A stretch of DNA of 64,000 nucleotides from a virus. Numbering within the stretch: position 1 is the first letter of the stretch; each line of letters opens with the position of its first letter. Made by a program: the position numbers and the translations under genes. The notes beneath the pieces are model-generated. The model saw only the letters and a program-made list of their open reading frames with translations, had not been told where the DNA came from and made no database searches. Location: the IMG/VR virus record IMGVR_UViG_3300047666_001259, positions 41,909 to 105,908 of that record, one strand, 5' to 3'. Positions 34,008 through 42,792 of this stretch are shown here, one piece after another.

Positions 34008-35282
34008 ATGACTCACAAGGAGCTAACAAACATCGAAGGAAGGTATACGCAGTCAACTATTGATGACGATTTATATAAGCTGAACATGCAGTACGCAGCC
34101 TTTGTTCTTTTTCCAAGAGCTAAAGTTCAATATAAGTACATCCTTCGATCTGATGTTAAATTCCCAAAAGGATTCGGAGCCGTCCTGAGAGACATCATCC
34201 ACCAATATTCTGGACTTACTGCTCCAGAAGGTGCAGAAGAGTTTCTTAATAGAAGATGTGGGTATTTACCTCCTACTTTTATAAACTTCTTATTGAATTT
34301 CCGTTTCAACCCTTCTGAGGTTGGAATTATTCAACATAAAGATGGATCAATTGAAATTGATATCGAAGGATACTTTTTCTCAGCTATTAGATGGGAAGTA
34401 ACTTTGATGGCAACAATATCTGAGCTTTACTTCCTAATGACGGGAGAGGCTGATAAGATTGATATCGAAAGAATGAACAATTCTGGAGAAAAAGCAAGTC
34501 ATCTTAGATTGCATGCAATCAAGTTTGCTGAATTTGGAACTCGAAGAAGATTCTCTTATAAAAACCAACTTCATACAGTTAAAGAATTGAAGAGAACTGG
34601 TTGGGACAGTTTTATCGGAACATCTAATGTTCACATCGCCATGATGGAAGATTTAACTCCAATTGGAACTCAAGGTCATGAGTGGTTCATGTTTCACCTA
34701 GCCATGTATGGTGCTAGAATGGCAAATGTCATGGGAATGAGAAATTGGGCTGATGTCTTTAATGGAGACAACGGAATTATCCTTCCTGACACATTTACTA
34801 CTGATGAATTCTTAAAAGTATTTGACAAAAGAATGTCTAAGCTTTATGATGGATCAAGATGGGATTCTGGAAGCTATAAGGATTTCACCGACAAATTCGT
34901 TGAACATTACAAAAAATTCAAAATAGATCACACTTCTAAACAATATGTTTACAGTGATGGGATTAACTCTTTACAAAAGTGTTATGATATCGTAAGCTAC
35001 GGAAATAAAGTTCACGATATTCCTAGATCAAACTTACCTTTAGGTATCGGAACTTGGTTTACCAACGACTTTGAAGGAATCACTCCTTTGAATCAAGTAA
35101 TCAAAATGTGGGCAGCACAACCAATCGAAGACGGAAGGTGGATTGATGTTTGTAAAATTTCTGACTCTTTCGGTAAAGTTACTGGAGAGAAAGAAGAAGC
35201 GGACTTGACTATGAAGGTGCTTGGGGTTAATTTAGAAGACCTTCAGAAAAAGAGTGAAGAAGCAGAAGTGTCAGAAGTATAA
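34008..35282 (+). CDS. pncB: Nicotinate phosphoribosyltransferase
   Basis: DDDLYKLNMQ, EFGTRRRFS, GTSNV, PIGTQGHEW, DT, R.DSG, SDG, GIGT.FTND, KISD..GK. Confidence 0.92.
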   Translation: MTHKELTNIEGRYTQSTIDDDLYKLNMQYAAFVLFPRAKVQYKYILRSDVKFPKGFGAVLRDIIHQYSGLTAPEGAEEFLNRRCGYLPPTFINFLLNFRFNPSEVGIIQHKDGSIEIDIEGYFFSAIRWEVTLMATISELYFLMTGEADKIDIERMNNSGEKASHLRLHAIKFAEFGTRRRFSYKNQLHTVKELKRTGWDSFIGTSNVHIAMMEDLTPIGTQGHEWFMFHLAMYGARMANVMGMRNWADVFNGDNGIILPDTFTTDEFLKVFDKRMSKLYDGSRWDSGSYKDFTDKFVEHYKKFKIDHTSKQYVYSDGINSLQKCYDIVSYGNKVHDIPRSNLPLGIGTWFTNDFEGITPLNQVIKMWAAQPIEDGRWIDVCKISDSFGKVTGEKEEADLTMKVLGVNLEDLQKKSEEAEVSEV

Positions 35283-35692
35283 TGGAAAAAATGGGAAGCA
35301 AATTAACACATAGATTTACAGTATTTCCTCAAGACACCAACAATCTCCAAACTTTATTTGGAGGAAAATTGATGGCTGAGATGGATTTAGCAGCAGCAAC
35401 TCTTTGTAGAAAGCTTTTGATAACATCTGAAGCAGAAGGAGCGGTTACTGCATCTTTCTCTAGGATTGATTTTACAGCACCTGCTCATGTGGATGACTTA
35501 ATCGAAATCAAAGCTGAGTTAAAGATGATTGGAAAATCTTCATTGAGGATACGGTTGGTGGCTTCAAAAGAAGACCCAGACGGAAAGGTAATAAAAATTG
35601 GGAGTTCTAACGCAACTTTTGTATCTTTGAAAGAAGGGAAATCTTTTCCTCATGGAATTAACTGGAACAATGTATGTTCCGAATACTTTTAA
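35282..35692 (+). CDS. Hotdog-fold acyl-CoA thioesterase
   Basis: VFPQDTN...LFGGKLMAEMDLAA...IDF.AP...IGKSSL. Confidence 0.85.
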   Translation: MEKMGSKLTHRFTVFPQDTNNLQTLFGGKLMAEMDLAAATLCRKLLITSEAEGAVTASFSRIDFTAPAHVDDLIEIKAELKMIGKSSLRIRLVASKEDPDGKVIKIGSSNATFVSLKEGKSFPHGINWNNVCSEYF

Positions 35693-35695
35693 AAT

Positions 35696-36334
35696 ATGAT
35701 TACAATAGGTTTATATTTCGGATCATTTAACCCGCTCACGAGAGCGCACTACAAAATTGCAGAACATTCTTTGACTCATTTGGATGAAGTTTGGTTTGTG
35801 GTTTCTCCCGCCAATCCTGATAAGGAAGCAACTGGAGAGTTAGAAGATGCTAGTCATAGGCTTGAAATGGTTAAAAGAACAGTGGATTTCTATAATGAAA
35901 ACAAGAAATCTGTAAACCTATTTGCTTCTGATGTAGAGTTTCATCTTCCTAACCCATCTTGGACTGATTCTTCAATTAAGAAGATTAAAGAAGAGCTTCT
36001 TAGAGATCGAGGTTTGAATGAGGGTGAATATGATCTTCGAATCATTTGTGGTCGTGACACTCACTACAGAATTCAAACTTGGAAGAACAAAGATTACATT
36101 ATTGACAACTGTAGTTTCTTGGTTTATGACCGTGCTGGAGTTGATTCAGTAGAAGACGAAGCTCTTCATCTAAAGAGTTATTATGTTAATGATCTTGGCA
36201 TCCTTCCAATATCTTCTACAATAGTCCGAGAGACTATTCATAAAGGAGGAGAAATATTTAATCTCGTCCCAGATGTCGTTGACTGTTACATTAGAGAGAA
36301 CGGCTTGTATCCTTACAAAACTAAGAAACGATGA
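35696..36334 (+). CDS. nadD: Nicotinate-nucleotide adenylyltransferase
   Basis: YFGSFNPLTRAH, VWFVVSP.NP, I.G.D, WK, ISSTIVRE. Confidence 0.88.
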   Translation: MITIGLYFGSFNPLTRAHYKIAEHSLTHLDEVWFVVSPANPDKEATGELEDASHRLEMVKRTVDFYNENKKSVNLFASDVEFHLPNPSWTDSSIKKIKEELLRDRGLNEGEYDLRIICGRDTHYRIQTWKNKDYIIDNCSFLVYDRAGVDSVEDEALHLKSYYVNDLGILPISSTIVRETIHKGGEIFNLVPDVVDCYIRENGLYPYKTKKR

Positions 36335-36594
36335 TCCCAATAGATATAGAACATGAACTCTATTATGATCGTGGCAAGCCTGAGTTAAGAGAGAGAACTC
36401 GTAATAGATTAATTAAGATGAAAGAGGTTGGGATGGAAGCATACCATAACTATCAATTCGGTTATGAAGGTGTGATGTCAGGTCTTTGGATTGAAAGAGT
36501 TTGGGGCTTTAGTGAAGAGAGATGGAATAAATACATGAAATGGGCAACGGACTTAATTAAAGAGAAAACAGATGAAGCTACTAAGGTGTCCTAA
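36331..36594 (+). CDS. Hypothetical protein
   Basis: Coupled ORF. Confidence 0.5.
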   Translation: MIPIDIEHELYYDRGKPELRERTRNRLIKMKEVGMEAYHNYQFGYEGVMSGLWIERVWGFSEERWNKYMKWATDLIKEKTDEATKVS

Positions 36595-37930
36595 TTGTAA
36601 TGACGTTATCCGTTTAGTTCATATTGAATGGAGAACTTGTGAGTGTGGAGGTTGTGGAGGTCAATATAATAAAGACCTCATGAGCGCAACCATCGGAGGG
36701 AAATGCGATGTAATTGGGCTATCAAATTTATTCTTCAACGAAGACTTTAGAAAAAAGACTTGGGAAGAAAAAGTGGAATTCAGAAAAGAAATTAACCATT
36801 ACCCCGCTGAGATTTGGTTCGGAGAGATGCAAGGCGACAATCAGATCATTCGTATTGAAGACCCTAAAGGTGGGAGAATTGAAATGGATGTAGAGTTTGA
36901 CCCAGAGAGTGAAACTACTAAATCAATCATCACAGACAAAAGAAATTATTTTGTTAACCTTGCTGACGATACAAAGCCGAAAGAATTAATTATTCATAAT
37001 AAAATGGTTCCGTCTTTTAGAGATGCTGAAATGAGATTGGGAGGAAAGTCTTCCGCTGTTGAAGCCATAACAGATAGAACAAAAGAACAAAAGAACAATA
37101 ACATGGAGACAATCAATTACGAAGAAGTAGCAACCCATATTACCAAGTGGTTGAAAAATTACAGCGTAAAAGCTGGGGCTAAAGGATATGTTCTTGGTAT
37201 TTCAGGAGGAGTGGATTCAGCGGTAGTTTCTACTTTGTGTGCCAGAACTGGACTGCCTCTAACTTGTTTGGAAATGCCGATCCACCAAAACGAAGAACAT
37301 GACACTCGTGCTGCAAGACATATTGATTGGCTTGAAGAAAATTTTGATTACGTAACAAGAGAAAGAGTTGATTTGACAGCAACTTTCGATTTGTTCATGA
37401 ACTCAAACAGTATTATTCAAGGTGGGGACATGTCCGCTGTTCGGCTAGCAGGAGCCAACGCCAGAAGTAGACTTAGAATGGTTCAGCTTTACTTAATAGC
37501 TTCAATCAAGAATATGTTGGTCTGCGGTACGGGAAACAAGGTTGAAGATTTTGGTGTAGGATTCTATACTAAGTACGGTGATGGAGGAGTTGATGTAAGT
37601 CCAATTGCAGACCTTTTAAAGACAGAAGTTTGGGGATTGGCAAAACACCTTGGAATAAACGAAGAAATCGTTTCTGCCATACCTTCAGATGGTTTGTGGG
37701 GAGATACTAGATCAGATGAAGATCAGATTGGAGCCTCTTACCCAGAGCTTGAATGGGCAATGGCTTATATCGATAAAAATTACACTGACATTTCAATGGG
37801 GGTTCATCCTTACAATGATGTTACGGAAAGACAAATGGAAGTAATTGACATTTATAGAGGATTCAATTCTCGAAACCAACACAAGATGGTAGAGATTCCC
37901 GTTTGCGATGTTTCTAAATTTAGAAATTAA
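36572..37930 (+). CDS. nadE: NH3-dependent NAD+ synthetase with an N-terminal Zn-ribbon domain (NadE domain from about 37103)
   Basis: LGISGGVDSAV, NARSRLRM, GTGNKVE..VGFYTKYGDGG, PIADL.KTEV, PSDGLW, DEDQIG, NQHK. Confidence 0.92.
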   Translation: MKLLRCPNCNDVIRLVHIEWRTCECGGCGGQYNKDLMSATIGGKCDVIGLSNLFFNEDFRKKTWEEKVEFRKEINHYPAEIWFGEMQGDNQIIRIEDPKGGRIEMDVEFDPESETTKSIITDKRNYFVNLADDTKPKELIIHNKMVPSFRDAEMRLGGKSSAVEAITDRTKEQKNNNMETINYEEVATHITKWLKNYSVKAGAKGYVLGISGGVDSAVVSTLCARTGLPLTCLEMPIHQNEEHDTRAARHIDWLEENFDYVTRERVDLTATFDLFMNSNSIIQGGDMSAVRLAGANARSRLRMVQLYLIASIKNMLVCGTGNKVEDFGVGFYTKYGDGGVDVSPIADLLKTEVWGLAKHLGINEEIVSAIPSDGLWGDTRSDEDQIGASYPELEWAMAYIDKNYTDISMGVHPYNDVTERQMEVIDIYRGFNSRNQHKMVEIPVCDVSKFRN

Positions 37931-37948
37931 TAACATTTAAATCGAATT

Positions 37949-38260
37949 ATGAAAAAAGAAAATTTAATAGAACAATATAAAGAAATATCGAAAACATATT
38001 CATCTTTTGAAGATTGTTATAATCTTGTAACAGAAACTAATAATGTAGAAATATGTAAATTTTGTTTAGATTCTGATGGTATTTGGAAAAGACTTGAATT
38101 ACAATGGATGTTGGAATTTTTTCAAACCAACGAAGAATATGAAAAATGTGAAGTTTTGAAAAAATTAATAGAAGAACATTTTATTGCTGATGAATATAAA
38201 CAAAATGAGTTGAATAGTAAATTAGATGAATATGTTTCTTATATAAATAACGGTAGTTAG
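37949..38260 (+). CDS. Hypothetical protein, UVR-like motif
   Basis: LEFFQTNEEYEKCEVLK; very AT-rich; left flank of the cassette array. Confidence 0.55.
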   Translation: MKKENLIEQYKEISKTYSSFEDCYNLVTETNNVEICKFCLDSDGIWKRLELQWMLEFFQTNEEYEKCEVLKKLIEEHFIADEYKQNELNSKLDEYVSYINNGS

Positions 38261-38601
38261 TAATCCTATATAAGAATAGTAATAAAGGACGTGGAACTGC
38301 CGCTAATGAAATAATGAGTGGTTATGCGTTGTATAATAACAACTGTGCTGAACCCACTTGGTTACTTACTGAGTTTAATTATTTAAAAGAAACAACAAAT
38401 ATTAAATTCAAAAAATACTTTGGATATAAATTAACTGAAGAAGAAAGCGTTGTGTTTTGCTATGAAAATGATTGATATAATGAGTGAGACACTAAGGAGT
38501 GCAAAGGGAGTGCCTAATGGCTCTTTTCGGTGTGCCGATGACGAATGTATGTTATCCCCCTCTCATTCATTATATCTTTTGTTATTGTGCGTTTTAATAC
38601 A

Positions 38602-38810
38602 CTCTAACGGTTTGTGTATGGGTATTTTTTGCCCGATTTAATAATAACTAAAATTTAATAAAATGACTGAGGAAATTAAGCAATTACTGATTGACTGTGC
38701 AAACTTTATCCAACCGTATGATGATGGAGGAAACGAAGCTGAAAGGTTAATGATAAGACTTGATGAAGCACTAAAGCAAGGGTAATAATTACCTATACAC
38801 GTTGTTGTAT
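38602..38810 (+). repeat. attC-like site A (209 bp, loop carries a 40-codon ORF)
   Basis: CTCTAAC 38602-08; arms 38614-34 / 38780-800; GTTGTAT 38804-10. Confidence 0.8.
38663..38785 (+). CDS. 40-aa ORF inside an attC-like loop (possibly truncated)
   Basis: MTEEIKQLLIDCANFIQPYDDGGNEAERLMIRLDEALKQG*; A-rich leader. Confidence 0.5.
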   Translation: MTEEIKQLLIDCANFIQPYDDGGNEAERLMIRLDEALKQG

Positions 38811-38897
38811 GTCTTTTTTAATTGCATACAATATGTTGTATGTGCCGTTATGAGGCACGAGCAATGAATTTTAAACCTTGTTAGGCACTTTACGATA

Positions 38898-39089
38898 ATG
38901 GATAAGATGGAATCATTCACGTACAAAGGCTTCAAGGTAGACCCAACTTGTTATAACTATGGTTTTGAATGTATAGTTCAAGACGAAGCACCAAAGCTAT
39001 TTGGTATGTCTATAAATGGCATCAAGTTAGAGATTGACGAATGGATTAAAAAAGAAAAAAGGGAAGGGGAAAACTTAGAGTACCTATAA
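38898..39089 (+). CDS. Cassette ORF, hypothetical
   Basis: Follows GTTAGGCAC at 38880; ends in a degenerate complement TAGAGTACCTATA. Confidence 0.55.
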   Translation: MDKMESFTYKGFKVDPTCYNYGFECIVQDEAPKLFGMSINGIKLEIDEWIKKEKREGENLEYL

Positions 39090-39106
39090 AATTAAAGACA
39101 AATAAA

Positions 39107-39412
39107 ATGAACGAATCAAAAGAAATGATGGGGGAGCAATGTTTAACCGAAAAACAAACATTAAAAACCTCTTTAGAAAAATTAAACCAAAGAAACTATG
39201 AACTGAATGATATTGCGTCATTAAGTTCTCTATTAGTAGAAAAATTCTTTAACCCTAATAACGAGCCTAGAGATAATCAAGGTTCTGATAGAGAAAAAGA
39301 AAGACAGCCTGATAATATAGTTGAAGTTTTTGACGAGGTATCTAAAAAGCTTGGTAATAACATAAACACTATTGGGAGCAATTTGCAAAGAATATTGGCA
39401 ATAATGGAATAA
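39107..39412 (+). CDS. Cassette-region ORF, hypothetical coiled coil
   Basis: ORF track. Confidence 0.55.
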   Translation: MNESKEMMGEQCLTEKQTLKTSLEKLNQRNYELNDIASLSSLLVEKFFNPNNEPRDNQGSDREKERQPDNIVEVFDEVSKKLGNNINTIGSNLQRILAIME

Positions 39413-39481
39413 CCAACTTGTGAGCGTGGGCTTTTTCTTATTAGCAGAATGTTTGATTTGAAACTGAATTTAGCCCATGAC

Positions 39482-39575
39482 TTACAACGTTTAGGCTAAG
39501 GTTAGTAGCCTTTAATACTAACCATTAAATTATAACAAGACCTATTGAGGCTATTAATTTTAGCCATTGTTAGGC
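39482..39575 (+). repeat. attC-like site B (94 bp)
   Basis: TTACAAC; 17-bp stem 39494-510 / 39549-565 (3 G-T pairs); GTTAGGC. Confidence 0.85.
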
Positions 39576-39585
39576 ATAGTTTATT

Positions 39586-39789
39586 ATGGAAGCAAGAGAA
39601 TTTTACGACAAAAGAATTAACGAAGAACCGACTATTGGAAGCGTACAGTTAATGGAAGAATATGCAAAACATATTATTGAAATTAACTTTTGTGATGGCT
39701 CTCCTATTGAATTTAACAAACTATCGGTTGAGCAACTAAAAACAATTCACAAAAATATAAATAAGTGTGTCGATTGGGTTAACTCCTAA
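39586..39789 (+). CDS. Cassette ORF, hypothetical
   Basis: Between GTTAGGCATAGTT and AATTGTGCCTAAC; LMEEYAK motif. Confidence 0.6.
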   Translation: MEAREFYDKRINEEPTIGSVQLMEEYAKHIIEINFCDGSPIEFNKLSVEQLKTIHKNINKCVDWVNS

Positions 39790-39793
39790 TTGT

Positions 39794-39924
39794 GCCTAAC
39801 GGAATTGTATAAGGTTTCGTTACGTAGATTAAATAATAAATTAACAAATAAAAACTGAATTGTGATTAAGCAAGAAAATAATAAACAAACAGAAATTAGT
39901 AATGAACTTTATACGGTGTTATGC
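39794..39924 (+). repeat. attC-like site C (131 bp)
   Basis: GCCTAAC; arms 39807-23 / 39899-914 with one bulged T; GTTATGC. Confidence 0.85.
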
Positions 39925-40200
39925 CCCGTTAATTTGTTTAGGTACTTCCTTCGCAAGCAATACAAAGACGTTGAAATTAGTAACGAAGAATGCGATGAAT
40001 TAAACACAGACTTTCACAAACACTTAACAAGCCTAAAGTTAAGCGAAAAGCAAAAGGAAAACATAATGCCTAAAAGTGAAATAGATGTAATAATGAACTC
40101 TGAACACCCATTAAGAATGGATGGATTTAGCCCTGCTTATGTTTTTCATTTTGGTGAATATATAAAAAGTAGAGCAGTCGCATTGGCTAATGGGGCATAG
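39862..40200 (+). CDS. Cassette ORF starting inside the site C loop
   Basis: GTG start in the loop; reads through GTTATGC (ELYTVLCPV); TAG stop lies in the next site's left box. Confidence 0.6.
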   Translation: MIKQENNKQTEISNELYTVLCPVNLFRYFLRKQYKDVEISNEECDELNTDFHKHLTSLKLSEKQKENIMPKSEIDVIMNSEHPLRMDGFSPAYVFHFGEYIKSRAVALANGA

Positions 40201-40205
40201 CTGTT

Positions 40206-40394
40206 GTTATCGGCAGTTTAATTGAAAAATATCAAAAAGTTCGCAATAAAAATCAGGAGCAATTTATGACTCAATTTGGAAATGAATATTCTATATCAAA
40301 CGCACTTTTATTGGAAGAAAGAGATTGTTGCGACAGATTTATAGAAGATTTGAAAAAACTGCCGATAACGGCTGATGATAAACAATCGTTTTAA
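40206..40394 (+). pseudogene. Headless cassette ORF (62 codons) after a collapsed site
   Basis: VIGSLIEKYQKVRN...LKKLPITADDKQSF* open from the GTT; upstream hairpin reduced to GCATAGC-tgtt-GTTATCG. Confidence 0.5.
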
Positions 40395-40416
40395 TGTTGT
40401 TTATCATTTGTTATGT
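40363..40416 (+). repeat. attC-like site E (54 bp, minimal)
   Basis: CGATAAC-ggctg-ATGATAAACAA-tcgttttaatg-TTGTTTATCAT-tt-GTTATGT. Confidence 0.85.
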
Positions 40417-40525
40417 GTAGGTGTGGTTAATTAAGGTAGAATGTTTAATCGGAGAACTGAACAAAAATTTTAAAAGAAAAAGAAGGGTTGATTTTAAAAT
40501 TTGAATATTTATATATAAACATATT

Positions 40526-41044
40526 ATGAGTGAAGATATGAGAAAAATGATTGATAAAGCTAAGAACTTTAATCAGTTTTTAAATGAAAACGAAAATTTA
40601 ATGAACCAAATATTAGATAAAATTAGTTCTAATGGTATAACATCATTAAATACTGGTGAATTAAAATATTTGAAACAATATTCTTCTGGACAAATAAATC
40701 CAGATTTAGAAAAAGCACTTCAAGTTGAAAGTGGTTTTGTTTTTGTTTCAAAAAATATACCACTGTTAAGATTTGAATATAATTTCACCGAAGAATCAGA
40801 TGAAGAATATCAAAAAATGCTACACAAAGGAACCGTTTATATTGACGGATTAGAATTTGATGGAGATATTTATTGTGATGAAAATGGAAAATATGAAGCA
40901 TTCGATTTTCACACATATCAATCCAATGATGATGGCACAACTGACCAAATAGAAGATTTAGCTTACTATGATGATGAGTTAGATGGTAAGATAGAAAAAT
41001 TCTTTAAAAATGAAGTTTCTCCTTACTTAACCTATTCATTTTAA
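40526..41044 (+). CDS. Cassette-borne late-type protein
   Basis: Own TATTTAT at 40506; N-terminus ...NFNQFLNENE; ILDKISSNGITSLN.GE..YL. Confidence 0.65.
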   Translation: MSEDMRKMIDKAKNFNQFLNENENLMNQILDKISSNGITSLNTGELKYLKQYSSGQINPDLEKALQVESGFVFVSKNIPLLRFEYNFTEESDEEYQKMLHKGTVYIDGLEFDGDIYCDENGKYEAFDFHTYQSNDDGTTDQIEDLAYYDDELDGKIEKFFKNEVSPYLTYSF

Positions 41045-41093
41045 AAAGTTGGCGGGATTTTTCTTTTAAAATTTTCAACCGAAATGTTGATTA

Positions 41094-41133
41094 GAACGAT
41101 AAACGGAACGATAAACGGAACGATAAACGGAAC
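41094..41133 (+). repeat. 12-bp tandem repeat (GAACGATAAACG x3.3)
   Basis: Directly visible. Confidence 0.9.
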
Positions 41134-41139
41134 ACTTAC

Positions 41140-41236
41140 ACATAACGTTAAGTATATGGTTTTGTAAGCCATAGCAGAAATTTACAAATTAAAAACGAAT
41201 ATTAATTAGGCTTATAAACTATATACATTGTTGTGT
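41140..41236 (+). repeat. attC-like site F (97 bp)
   Basis: ACATAAC; arms 41152-70 / 41209-26 with one bulged T; GTTGTGT. Confidence 0.85.
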
Positions 41237-41270
41237 GTAATACGGGATTTAAGCCACAAACTTTATAAAA

Positions 41271-41453
41271 ATGCAAAGAAAGATAAATTGCAAACACAAC
41301 AACATGGGTGCTTGGTGTACCAACAAGGATATAAAACGCTCATTGTTTGGTATAGGTGCAAGATGTTGTACTGAATTTAATGACAAAAAATGTGATTTAA
41401 AAGAAATTAGAACAAGGAAAGGCAAGCCGCCACCAAGACCAACGAAAGCGTAG
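41271..41453 (+). CDS. Cassette ORF, small Cys-rich protein
   Basis: Between GTTGTGTGTAATAC and GTATTACACACAAT. Confidence 0.6.
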   Translation: MQRKINCKHNNMGAWCTNKDIKRSLFGIGARCCTEFNDKKCDLKEIRTRKGKPPPRPTKA

Positions 41454-41459
41454 TATTAC

Positions 41460-41684
41460 ACACAATGTTATGGATATGGATTGATTTTTAACGGATAAAT
41501 AAACACAGAATTATGAATATAGACGAAGAAAATAAAGCAAAAGAATTTTACATTAAGAGTGCTATAAATGGCATTCATACACCACGAACTAATATGGTTG
41601 AGATAAACTATTTAGATATGCTAAAGCTAATGCACTCTTACAGCCAAGAGGTAGTTAAAAATTTATCTATATCTGGTGTTAAGA
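41460..41684 (+). repeat. attC-like site G (225 bp)
   Basis: ACACAAT; arms 41473-92 / 41654-73; GTTAAGA. Confidence 0.8.
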
Positions 41685-41851
41685 ACTGGGTGGCGGTTAA
41701 AGACTCTATGCCCGAAAATTGCGACCAAGTTTTTGTAAAGTATGAAAATGGCAAATATGGAATAAATGAATGGTGGAAAAGTGATGATTGCTGGAAATAC
41801 CAATTTGATAATATGATAGTAAAAGAATGGTGTAAGCCACCTTGTTCTTAA
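41513..41851 (+). CDS. Cassette ORF with a C-terminal DUF551-like domain, starting inside the site G loop
   Basis: WVAVKDSMPE...V...W...P.PP; stop is the TAA of TCTTAAC. Confidence 0.65.
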   Translation: MNIDEENKAKEFYIKSAINGIHTPRTNMVEINYLDMLKLMHSYSQEVVKNLSISGVKNWVAVKDSMPENCDQVFVKYENGKYGINEWWKSDDCWKYQFDNMIVKEWCKPPCS

Positions 41852-41915
41852 CGTCTCGTATATGGTGTCGGAATTTTATTTTTCTTAAAATTATGCATTA
41901 TATACTTTGTTACCA
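41846..41915 (+). repeat. attC-like site H (70 bp)
   Basis: TCTTAAC-gtctc-GTATATGGTG...CATTATATAC-ttt-GTTACCA. Confidence 0.8.
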
Positions 41916-41945
41916 ATAGTACGGATTTTAATAACTAAATTTAAT

Positions 41946-42227
41946 ATGAAAACAATAACTTCAATTATAGCACTAGCTAAGGCATTTTTTATATTGCTTG
42001 TTAGGCGTAGTGCTTCTTTACCGCAAGTCTTAATGACTAAAAATGATTTTGAATTAGTTTTAAACCACTATCTACTAAATTATTGGGATATAAAACATGA
42101 AAATATTGATGGATTTGAACATTTAACAATTCAAAATCATTTACCATTTTATAAAAAAAGGTTTGAAGAAATGAAAAAAGTAATTGATGAACGCAAGATT
42201 ATTCGTGTGATGGTGCATTACACCTAA
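41946..42227 (+). CDS. Cassette ORF reading through the half site at 42000
   Basis: ATG 41946; ILLVRRSAS spans GTTAGGC; stop is the TAA of ACCTAAC. Confidence 0.55.
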   Translation: MKTITSIIALAKAFFILLVRRSASLPQVLMTKNDFELVLNHYLLNYWDIKHENIDGFEHLTIQNHLPFYKKRFEEMKKVIDERKIIRVMVHYT

Positions 42228-42273
42228 CACTGGAATAGATTGCGTTTCAATGCAACTCTATGGAATGTTAAAG
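42222..42273 (+). repeat. attC-like site J (52 bp)
   Basis: ACCTAAC; ATAGATTGC-gtttcaat-GCAACTCTAT; GTTAAAG. Confidence 0.75.
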
Positions 42274-42307
42274 CACGTTTTAATGTGCTAAATTTTAAAT
42301 TCATAAA

Positions 42308-42592
42308 ATGAAAGATTTGAAACCAAATTTTAAATCAGTTAGAGAACTCTGTGAAGAGTTCGGAGTTCAGGTAGAGCTTTCTTTCGGGAAGAAATTTAGA
42401 GCTATCGTGAGCAATGATGAAGAAATTCATGTGTTACAAAACGGATGGGATAAAAATCTAATTGAAGAAATCTCAGCCTTATCTGCTGAGATGTGGAAAA
42501 GAGAAGAAAAAAGATATAAGGAGATTTCTGATAGGCTTAAAAACTTAGACCCTGAAATCTTTCCAGACAACTTATTTGAAGATAAAGAATAA
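42308..42592 (+). CDS. Hypothetical protein
   Basis: ORF track. Confidence 0.55.
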   Translation: MKDLKPNFKSVRELCEEFGVQVELSFGKKFRAIVSNDEEIHVLQNGWDKNLIEEISALSAEMWKREEKRYKEISDRLKNLDPEIFPDNLFEDKE

Positions 42593-42792
42593 TGGTAAGA
42601 AGGAGCGATATTTGGTTTTTTGGAGTAATTGCATTTGCGATGTTCCTAATAATATATGATGTAGTTACGCAGACATTTCAACCTTGGCATAACTACTGGA
42701 TGATTCTCCTGATACCTTATGTTCCTATTAAGATTTTTTATTCAAAATCAAAGCTGTTCAGATGGCTTAATACAGATATATGGAAAAGTTAA
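42592..42792 (+). CDS. Small 2-TM membrane protein
   Basis: Two hydrophobic segments. Confidence 0.55.
   Translation: MVRRSDIWFFGVIAFAMFLIIYDVVTQTFQPWHNYWMILLIPYVPIKIFYSKSKLFRWLNTDIWKS

What the first reader, a model, noticed from the sequence alone, without database searches (positions are those of the whole stretch)
38663..42227. ORFs begin inside the recombination hairpins and end on the crossover triplet
Seen: ORFs 39862, 41513 and 38663 start in the A-rich loops of sites C, G and A. ORFs 39862, 41513 and 41946 translate through the right arm and GTT (ELYTVLCPV, NLSISGVKNW, FILLVRRSAS), and their stops coincide with the next left box (caTAGc, ctTAAc, ccTAAc). In site A the right arm would read GQKLPIHVVV if it matched its left arm, but two substitutions create TAA TAA. 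The frame across GTT differs between ORF 39862 and ORFs 41513/41946. Inference: the site doubles as translation-initiation region and coding sequence. If crossover is at AA|C the genes are self-contained; if at G|TT, recombination would shuffle N- and C-terminal protein modules (e.g. the DUF551-like half of 41513..41851).
Basis: partly seen in the sequence, partly recalled or inferred. Interest (0 to 1): 0.8.

Follow-up and report, generated by a model that had tools for sequence, protein, structure and literature searches.

The report
Phage genes built across recombination hairpins
In a 4-kb accessory island of a large marine (Flavobacteriales-type) phage, small genes start inside DNA hairpins that bound integron-like gene modules, and related phages carry the same protein front halves and back halves in dozens of other in-frame combinations joined at the hairpin's GTT (valine) codon.

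Summary
The island (38.6-42.3 kb) alternates hairpin modules (AAC, spacer, arm, loop, arm, spacer, GTT) with body modules that start GTT(A), end (T)AAC and have complementary ends.

- **ORFs 38663, 39862 and 41513** start in hairpin loops. ORF 41946 starts in a weak left arm.
- **ORFs 39862, 41513 and 41946** read through the right arm and GTT, and stop on TAA/TAG of the next box.
- **ORF 41513:** its 56-aa head is joined elsewhere to at least 14 unrelated bodies, and its body to at least 23 unrelated heads. The break falls at Val56, the GTT codon.
- **ORF 38663:** Here TAA TAA truncates it.
- **ORF 39862:** GTT is out of codon phase, and only full-length relatives were found.
- **ORF 41946:** no head or body swap could be shown.

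Stems covary between relatives and fold better on the sense strand (32 G.T pairs against 4). No recombinase gene lies in the 106 kb held, so the mechanism is inferred. The stop-in-box coincidence is what TAAC would give by chance.

The same scan reported this phenomenon earlier on other phage DNA and on this genome's other array. I found no published description.

The parts
38606..38806 (+).
   Evidence: Duplex of 24 bp, -27.1 kcal/mol on the + strand against -16.7 on the - strand.
38663..38785 (+). ORF 38663: 40-aa head module wholly inside the loop, ended by TAA TAA at the start of the right arm
   Evidence: 39 relatives at E<=1e-3. Their 25 tails are mutually unrelated, and 11 continue through an LP(I/L)xxV linker.
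38804..38832 (+). Empty 29-bp body module (GTTGTATG...CATACAAT)
   Evidence: A contig of run X8 matches only 38802-38832, with unrelated sequence on both sides. A joint 38832->39493 is seen in run X6.
39415..39571 (+). Two adjacent ORF-less hairpin modules: A_B (AAC 39415, GTT 39489) and A_B2 (AAC 39486, arms 39493-39511 and 39548-39565, GTT 39569)
   Evidence: A_B folds with z = -2.65 as DNA. The stretch 39493-39576 has four times the flanking depth and loose ends at 39493 in metagenome contigs.
39569..39800 (+). Body module with the self-contained ORF 39586-39789; ends GTTAGGCA / TGCCTAAC
39798..39920 (+).
   Evidence: 19-bp duplex, -18.8 on the + strand against -9.3 on the - strand. The arms covary with synonymous codon changes in L092. 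Whole-site fold z is only -0.07.
39862..40200 (+). ORF 39862: GTG start in the loop, reads through the right arm and GTT 39918 (phase 2), stops at TAG in the degenerate box
   Evidence: 22 relatives, all sharing the same head-to-body junction; one diverges only after residue 76. L092 and an X7 contig have ATG at the same position. dN/dS is 0.97 for codons 1-14 and 0.10 for codons 24-96.
39918..40201 (+). Body module of ORF 39862; ends 12/14 complementary
40206..40412 (+). Body module 40206-40369 (ends 14/14 complementary; ORF 40266-40394 runs on past AAC) plus hairpin A_E (AAC 40367, GTT 40410)
   Evidence: A_E fold z = -4.70.
40410..41146 (+). Body module with ORF 40526-41044 (DUF6576); ends 14/15 complementary
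41144..41232 (+). ORF-less hairpin module A_F
   Evidence: 18-bp duplex, -22.6 kcal/mol. Contigs of runs X7 and X9 match only 41143-41232, and depth is up to nine times the flanks.
41230..41466 (+). Body module with ORF 41271-41453; ends 13/14 complementary, right box degenerate (AAT)
41464..41680 (+).
   Evidence: 20-bp duplex, -20.7 against -13.3. Two compensatory pair changes against L087. The module is kept at 95% aa identity in L090 between different neighbours.
41513..41851 (+). ORF 41513: head (aa 1-56, in A_G) plus a weakly DUF551-like body (aa 57-112), with stop TAA in CTTAAC
   Evidence: 46 relatives: 16 head-only and 24 body-only. Five alignments end exactly at residue 56. Head dN/dS 0.10, body 0.02-0.14. 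DUF551 is matched by 4 of 31 family members, best E 0.003.
41678..41852 (+). Body module of ORF 41513; ends 15/17 complementary and both coding (VKNWVA / PPCS-stop)
   Evidence: Three compensatory pair changes against L089; the same pairing is seen in L087, L091 and L096.
41850..41911 (+). Hairpin module A_H
   Evidence: 19-bp duplex; fold z = -3.21.
41933..42002 (+). Putative hairpin A_I (weak): left arm 41941-41953 holds ATG 41946, right arm 41985-41997, GTT 42000
   Evidence: Duplex of only -6.7 kcal/mol; fold z = +0.91.
41946..42227 (+). ORF 41946: 18-aa head, GTT 42000 as Val19 (phase 0), stop TAA in CCTAAC
   Evidence: 11 full-length relatives with two head types.
42000..42228 (+). Body module of ORF 41946; ends 13/17 complementary
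42226..42295 (+). Last hairpin A_J (AAC 42226, GTT 42267) and the terminal stem-loop that closes the array
   Evidence: The same terminal element, with compensatory changes, ends the other array.

Best explanation
The island is an array of two alternating kinds of exchangeable module. A modules are hairpins: (T)AAC, a 4-7 nt spacer, a left arm often holding GTATAYGG, a loop, a right arm often holding TATAC, a 0-4 nt spacer, then GTT. B modules begin at that GTT and end at the next (T)AAC, and their two ends are complementary to each other.

Genes are laid across this scaffold in two ways. Some sit wholly in a B module with their own ATG. Others are split. In a split gene the A loop supplies an A-rich leader, the start codon and an N-terminal head. 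Translation runs through the right arm and the GTT into the B module, and ends at or near the TAA of the next TAAC.

Structure-directed recombination at the AAC and GTT boxes moves A and B modules independently between phages. Where GTT is a codon (phase 0, Val), any head can join any body in frame, so the sites build chimeric small proteins.

Shown here:
- the anatomy;
- selection on pairing (covariation);
- preference for folding on the sense strand;
- coding constraint on a head and on the bodies;
- homology breaks at the boxes;
- many head/body combinations.

Inferred: that the exchange is enzymatic site-specific recombination on folded single strands, as in integrons. The enzyme is unknown. 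The nearest candidate is a Xer-like tyrosine recombinase next to a similar array in a relative.
For: 1. Anatomy and pairing. Three B modules whose ends are fixed by independently defined hairpins are 14/15, 13/14 and 15/17 complementary.
2. Covariation. The A_G stem has two compensatory changes against L087. The B41678 ends have three against L089, and the same pairing occurs in L091 and L096. The A_C arms change together with synonymous codon changes in L092.
3. Strand. The stems hold 32 G.T pairs on the + strand against 4 on the - strand. The + strand duplex is at least as stable in all 17 stems, tying in one. Base composition predicts a ratio of only about 1.2 to 1.
4. Chimeras. The head of ORF 41513 occurs with at least 14 unrelated bodies and its body with at least 23 unrelated heads. 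High-identity head matches (78-98%) end exactly at Val56. The head of ORF 38663 occurs with 25 unrelated tails, 11 of them through the predicted LPIxxV linker.
5. Translation. Head dN/dS is 0.10 and body 0.02-0.14. Relatives have ATG at the position of GTG 39862.
6. Module boundaries in metagenome contigs. A_F matches only at 41143-41232, the empty body only at 38802-38832, and a joint runs 38832->39493. In five loci the DNA after the TAAC of the 41513 body differs.
7. Phase. The one read-through ORF whose GTT is out of codon phase (39862) is also the one whose relatives all keep the same head-to-body junction.
Against: - No tyrosine, serine or Y1 recombinase gene lies in the 105.9 kb held, which CheckV rates at 31% of the genome. 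A 94%-complete relative (G003) has no tyrosine recombinase either.
- Folding energies alone are unremarkable for sites C, F, I and J (z from -1.6 to +0.9).
- The genome-wide count of GTT...AAC inverted repeats is not above simulation.
- Some contig breakpoints are not at a box (39045, 39305, 39436).
- The chimeric proteins are gene predictions from metagenome assemblies. None has been seen as a protein.
- No excision product or circle was observed.
- The window and L087 share both arms and the leader of site G but differ in the loop ORF, which a simple cut at GTT does not explain.
Confidence: 0.62

Rival explanations
1. Canonical integron remnant (CALIN). The sites are ordinary attC sites captured from a host integron and recombined by a host IntI on the bottom strand at G|TT. 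The ORF overlaps would then be incidental.
For: The layout is AAC...GTT with an R box, spacer and L box. Some boxes fit RYYYAAC/GTTRRRY: GCCTAAC at 39794, and GTTAGGC at 38880, 39569 and 42000. CALINs in virulent phages, including a Polaribacter phage, are recombined by IntI1 (PMC9892861).
Against: Pairing is selected on the sense (top) strand, 32 against 4 G.T pairs. B modules are not linked to their downstream hairpin, as a cassette with its own attC would be: five different downstream modules follow one body family. Most right boxes do not fit GTTRRRY. Complementary ends run to 10-17 bp, not 7. No IntI gene lies in the record.
Confidence: 0.15
2. Homologous or microhomology recombination at short conserved motifs. 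These would be the linker coding sequence, leader-like motifs, or PeSL-like promoter/stem-loop cassettes of T4-type phages. No site-specific enzyme is involved, and the hairpins serve transcription or translation.
For: The arms share short consensus words (GTATAYGG / TATAC). A leader-like motif recurs before several ATGs. PeSLs are known to mediate modular shuffling of small ORFs in phage hyperplastic regions (PMC2839356, PMC4122927). Some breakpoints are off the boxes.
Against: The linker (right arm) differs between heads and covaries with its own left arm, so it is not a shared homology tract. High-identity matches end at the GTT codon itself. Unit-specific complementary ends of B modules, with compensatory changes, have no role in homologous exchange.
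Confidence: 0.15
3. The structures act mainly in the mRNA. They would present the start codon in an open loop, or stabilise or process the transcript through 5'/3' stems around each ORF. The mosaicism would be ordinary phage gene flux.
For: Pairing is selected on the transcribed strand, and G.U pairs are tolerated. Start codons sit in A-rich loops. From my own knowledge, Bacteroidota initiate translation on unstructured A-rich leaders without a Shine-Dalgarno sequence.
Against: This does not explain why homology between genomes breaks at the boxes. Nor does it explain why ORF-less hairpin modules occur as separate high-copy units in other contexts. No Rfam family matches. The reading is compatible with, rather than opposed to, a DNA role.
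Confidence: 0.1

Closest known systems
Integron attC sites and cassette arrays, especially clusters of attC sites without an integrase (CALINs) in virulent phages (Qi et al. 2023, PMC9892861)
   Same: Both are arrays of co-oriented small ORFs separated by imperfect hairpins with AAC...GTT cores, an unpaired spacer and a second paired box. Site sequence varies while structure is kept. The sequence after GTT pairs with the end of the same unit, as expected after a crossover at GTT. The stop codon often lies in the left box. No integrase lies nearby.
   Different: Pairing is favoured on the sense strand. Complementary ends are 10-17 bp long. Loops reach 159 nt and encode protein heads. Body and downstream hairpin are not inherited together, so both boxes are exchange points. 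ORFs read in frame across the crossover.
ORF-11 / ORF-18 of the class 1 integron attI1 site and short ORFs inside attC (review PMC8876359)
   Same: An ORF starts in the recombination site and spans the crossover point. Its end is supplied by whichever cassette is inserted. The site therefore also acts as a translation-initiation region.
   Different: Those are 11-18 aa leader peptides that serve translational coupling. They are not folded protein modules fused to the cassette protein, and no combinatorial head/body families are described.
PeSL promoter/stem-loop cassettes of T4-type phages (PMC2839356, PMC4122927)
   Same: Stem-loop motifs flank small accessory ORFs in phage hyperplastic regions and mark the points of modular exchange.
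   Different: PeSLs are sequence-conserved promoter-terminator motifs that act through homologous recombination and move whole ORFs. The sites here are structure-conserved, unit-specific, and lie inside coding sequence.
Shufflons and invertible tail-fibre segments (R64 Rci; Mu Gin, P1 Cin). Cited from my own knowledge, not checked in a paper here.
   Same: Site-specific recombination sites embedded in coding sequence join one N-terminal part to alternative C-terminal parts.
   Different: Those are inversions among a few fixed alternatives inside one genome, at double-stranded repeats, with a dedicated recombinase next door. Here the modules are in direct order, drawn from an open pool across phages, at hairpin sites.

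Membership tests
Integron cassette array / CALIN | attC architecture: RYYYAAC, spacer, L'' ... L', spacer, GTTRRRY as imperfect inverted repeats | tested here: inconclusive
   AAC/GTT cores, asymmetric spacers and a second paired box are present at 8 of 9 sites. The full 7-nt consensus holds at only a few boxes, and two left boxes are degenerate (AAT, AGC).
Integron cassette array / CALIN | Bottom strand is the folded, recombinogenic strand | tested here: not met
   G.T pairs number 32 on the top (sense) strand against 4 on the bottom strand, and top-strand duplexes are at least as stable in all 17 stems, tying in one. This is an indirect test of strand use.
Integron cassette array / CALIN | A cassette (ORF plus its own downstream attC) is inherited as one unit | tested here: not met
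   The 41513 body family is followed by five different hairpin modules in the window, L087, L088, L089 and L096.
Integron cassette array / CALIN | Recognition by the attC covariance model of IntegronFinder or by HattCI | not testable with these tools
   Neither model is available here. Rfam has no attC family and gave no match.
Complete integron | intI (tyrosine recombinase with the IntI-specific insertion), attI and Pc next to the array | tested here: not met
   No PF00589 match in the 105.9 kb held. The record is only about 31% of the genome, so absence from the phage is not shown.
PeSL regulatory cassettes | Sequence-conserved promoter plus stem-loop motif shared by all copies | tested here: not met
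   Arms differ between sites and covary pairwise. Only short words are shared.
IS200/IS605-type or REP/RAYT single-strand hairpin elements | Y1 HUH transposase and strand-specific hairpin ends next to a fixed target tetranucleotide | tested here: inconclusive
   Strand-specific folding and a fixed TAAC on the left side resemble these elements. No PF01797 match lies in the record. Complementary ends of the B modules are not a feature of these elements.
DUF551 (body of ORF 41513) | Match to PF04448 above the gathering score | tested here: not met
   The window's body gives no match. Four of 31 family members match weakly, best E 0.003. No PDB relative was found.

The most novel reading that the evidence does not exclude
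Large phages of Flavobacteriales carry an exon-like protein assembly system at DNA level. Hairpin modules encoding N-terminal heads and inverted-repeat-bounded modules encoding bodies are separately mobile. They are joined in frame at a fixed Val (GTT) codon by a sense-strand, structure-directed recombination that differs from integron IntI chemistry in strand and in using both boxes. The result is an open combinatorial library of small, probably host-takeover or anti-defence, proteins.
Probability: 0.45. Interest if true: 0.9.

Novelty: new variant of a known kind. Interest (0 to 1): 0.74.

Why it matters
If recombination sites double as coding sequence and as fixed-phase splice points, phages have a DNA-level way to shuffle protein halves as well as whole genes. 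That would explain part of the vast diversity of small orphan phage proteins. It would give a rule for parsing them into heads and bodies: the Val junction and the complementary ends. It would also extend integron-type biology to a system with different strand use and no nearby integrase. The question is directly testable in cultured Flavobacteriia phages and by recombination assays.

Tried and rejected
DNA contexts came only from the search for related loci, so few loci were available (L087-L092, L095, L096).
- **Rfam:** no match in 37900-42700 at E<=1.
- **Sequencing runs:** no RNA holder was listed, so expression could not be looked at.
- **Viral-contig scan for ORF 41946:** no relative found.
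- **Scan for the 38663 head:** it returned only a stand-alone 46-aa version with no visible hairpin context (L095).
- **Anchored AAC...GTT duplex scan of the whole genome:** at -9 kcal/mol it gave about as many hits on either strand (584 and 618) and was too permissive to use.
- **Genome-wide count of GTT...AAC inverted repeats:** not above a Markov simulation. I therefore dropped it as an argument and used position, clustering and covariation instead.
- **Whole-site DNA folding z-scores:** significant only for the short-loop sites B, E and H.
- **Pfam, PDB sequence search:** the ten array ORFs scanned drew only one family match above threshold (DUF6576, ORF 40526), and the 41513 body family had no PDB relative.
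- **"Stop on the crossover triplet" as a special feature:** considered and rejected, because TAA is part of TAAC and one frame in three must stop there.
- **Assembly chimeras as the source of head/body combinations:** considered and rejected. The sequence shared at junctions is far shorter than assembler word sizes, and the combinations recur in independent studies.

Full report
**Context.** The window is the last 64 kb of a 105.9-kb IMG/VR virus record that CheckV rates at about 31% complete. The record is AT-rich, about 34% G+C. It carries NAD-synthesis genes. Its few DNA matches are to cyanophage and pelagiphage nadE and to Cellulophaga and Maribacter phages. A relative of one module lies on a contig binned as Flavobacteriales. 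Between 38.2 and 42.3 kb all ORFs are small and on the + strand.

**Anatomy.** Reading the intergenic stretches and scanning for inverted repeats shows two alternating kinds of unit.
- Hairpin units (A) run from (T)AAC through a 4-7 nt spacer, a left arm, a loop of 0-159 nt, a right arm and a 0-4 nt spacer to GTT. The arms often hold GTATAYGG and its partner TATAC.
- Body units (B) begin at that GTT and end at the next (T)AAC, and their own two ends are complementary.
- Three bodies have both ends fixed by independently defined hairpins: 40410-41146, 41230-41466 and 41678-41852. Their ends are 14/15, 13/14 and 15/17 complementary.
- Exact coordinates are in the parts list.
- A second array of the same build lies 7-9 kb before the window and ends in the same terminal stem-loop, with compensatory changes.

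**Is it more than chance?** The evidence is mixed, and I report both sides.
- Against: the genome-wide number of GTT...AAC repeats at my threshold (4) is not above simulation (3.15).
- Against: whole-site folding z-scores are significant only for short-loop sites. They are -2.65 for B, -4.70 for E and -3.21 for H. C, F, I and J range from -1.6 to +0.9.
- For: all four strong repeats lie in the two arrays and tile exactly with the hairpins.
- For: the stems covary in relatives.
  - The site G stem keeps 20 bp in L087 through two compensatory changes.
  - The ends of body 41678 keep pairing in L089 through three compensatory changes, and pairing is also kept in L091 and L096.
  - The site C arms change together with synonymous codon changes in L092.
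- For: pairing is strand-biased. The optimal duplexes hold 32 G.T pairs on the + strand and 4 on the - strand. The + strand duplex is at least as stable in all 17 stems, tying in one. Base composition would give about 1.2 to 1. So the sense strand, as DNA or RNA, is the one that folds.

**The four ORFs of the finding.**
- *Starts.* ORFs 38663, 39862 and 41513 begin in the loops of sites A, C and G, downstream of A-rich leaders. The real arms are 41471-41493 and 41653-41675.
- *ORF 41946.* It begins in a weak left arm of a site that folding does not support.
- *Read-through and stops.* ORFs 39862, 41513 and 41946 read through the right arm and GTT, and stop on TAG/TAA inside the next box. Only 3-4 of the 6 ORFs that reach a box do so. 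That is near the one-in-three expected because the box contains TAA.
- *Codon phase.* GTT is phase 0 at 41678, at 42000 and virtually at 38804, but not at 39918.

**Are the loop-initiated ORFs real?**
- The head of ORF 41513, including the right arm, differs from L090 at 9 nucleotides but only 3 residues (dN/dS 0.10).
- The body gives dN/dS of 0.02-0.14 against three relatives.
- The body family has no conserved start codon of its own.
- For ORF 39862, L092 and a metagenome contig have ATG exactly where the window has GTG. Its first 14 codons evolve neutrally (0.97), while the arm and the body are constrained (0.26 and 0.10).

- *ORF 41513.* Of 46 relatives, 16 match only the head and 24 only the body. 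Five high-identity head matches (78-98%) end exactly at Val56, the GTT codon.
  - The partners fall into at least 14 unrelated bodies and at least 23 unrelated heads.
  - At DNA level L090 keeps the whole hairpin module between different neighbours.
  - L087 keeps the body with another head.
- *ORF 38663.* The 40-aa head has 39 relatives. Their 25 longer tails are mutually unrelated. In the window the two stop codons begin at the two non-Watson-Crick positions within the arm segment that carries them, and the next body is an empty 29-bp unit.
- *ORF 39862.* All 22 relatives share the same head-to-body junction; one (P0068) diverges only after residue 76. L092 carries the hairpin plus body as one unit between different neighbours.
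- *ORF 41946.* All 11 relatives are full length, with two head types. No DNA context could be fetched.

**Where do genomes break?**
- Contigs of four metagenomes laid on the region show the ORF-less hairpin F as a separate unit. It matches 41143-41232 only, in two runs, at up to nine times the flanking depth.
- The empty body is also a separate unit, matching 38802-38832 only.
- A joint runs 38832->39493, and the site C module occurs in another context at 39802-39922.
- The 41513 body is followed by different hairpins in five loci.
- So both AAC and GTT are exchange points, and A and B units assort independently. A few breaks lie elsewhere (39045, 39305, 39436).

**Mechanism.** The layout matches integron logic: a crossover at the core leaves each unit's first bases complementary to its last. 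Phage CALINs are known, and IntI1 recombines their sites (PMC9892861). ORFs that span the attI1 crossover (ORF-11 and ORF-18) and short ORFs inside attC are also known (PMC8876359).

Three features differ here:
- sense-strand folding;
- no linkage between a body and its downstream hairpin;
- long loops that encode protein.

No tyrosine, serine or Y1 recombinase gene is in the record. In a related 26-kb phage record (G001), a 294-aa Xer-like recombinase lies just past the last hairpin of a similar array. It scores below the cut-offs for XerC/D and for IntI, and its IntI match is split into two stretches. A 94%-complete relative has none. The enzyme and the single-strand step are therefore inference.

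**Literature and earlier notes.** Five searches found no description of heads in attC-type loops or of head/body chimeras. Earlier agents of this scan reported the same phenomenon on at least seven other genomes and on this genome's other array. I tested it independently on this array.

Noticed in passing
window 41093-41132: Three tandem copies of a 12-nt unit (GAACGATAAACG) sit in the 3' untranslated part of body module 40410-41146, just before hairpin F.
   Followed up: no
window 42267-42295 and G000:C1:34657-34690: Both arrays of this phage end in the same GTTAAAG-stem-loop element. Two compensatory base-pair changes preserve the stem, and in the other array a T-run follows it, like a terminator.
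   Followed up: partly
L091:1501-2110: One ORF strings three modules together: the 41513-type head, a middle segment, and a DUF551-like body. It has two in-frame hairpin-arm-plus-GTT junctions (...DLFSV| and ...LTIPVV|).
   Followed up: partly
L094 (G001:C1:13000-23500), recombinase at L094:2975-3859 (-): A related 26-kb phage record has a row of about eight hairpin sites of the same type. One resembles the window's hairpin F. A 150-aa ORF and a 294-aa Xer-like tyrosine recombinase lie directly after the last site, on the same strand.
   Followed up: partly
window 41143-41232 and 39493-39576: ORF-less hairpin modules have 4-9 times the contig depth of their flanks in ice metagenomes. They appear to be multi-copy or shared by many phages there.
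   Followed up: partly
window 41909-41935; G000:C1:33649-33673 and 34096-34120: A conserved 25-27 bp unit (GTTA..A.TAGTACGGATT..TAAYA) recurs 12-20 nt before start codons. It may be an empty body module or a leader or promoter motif.
   Followed up: no
window 34008-37930: A nicotinate-salvage NAD operon (PncB-, NadD- and NadE-like ORFs) lies directly upstream of the array. The NadE part has 400+ relatives in viral contigs.
   Followed up: no
proteins P0092, P0100, P0113, P0114, P0116, P0117: The 37-aa module of ORF 38663 (LLIDCANFIQPY..GGNEAERL) also occurs at the C-terminal end of other small proteins, and alone. It therefore behaves as a free-standing mini-domain.
   Followed up: partly
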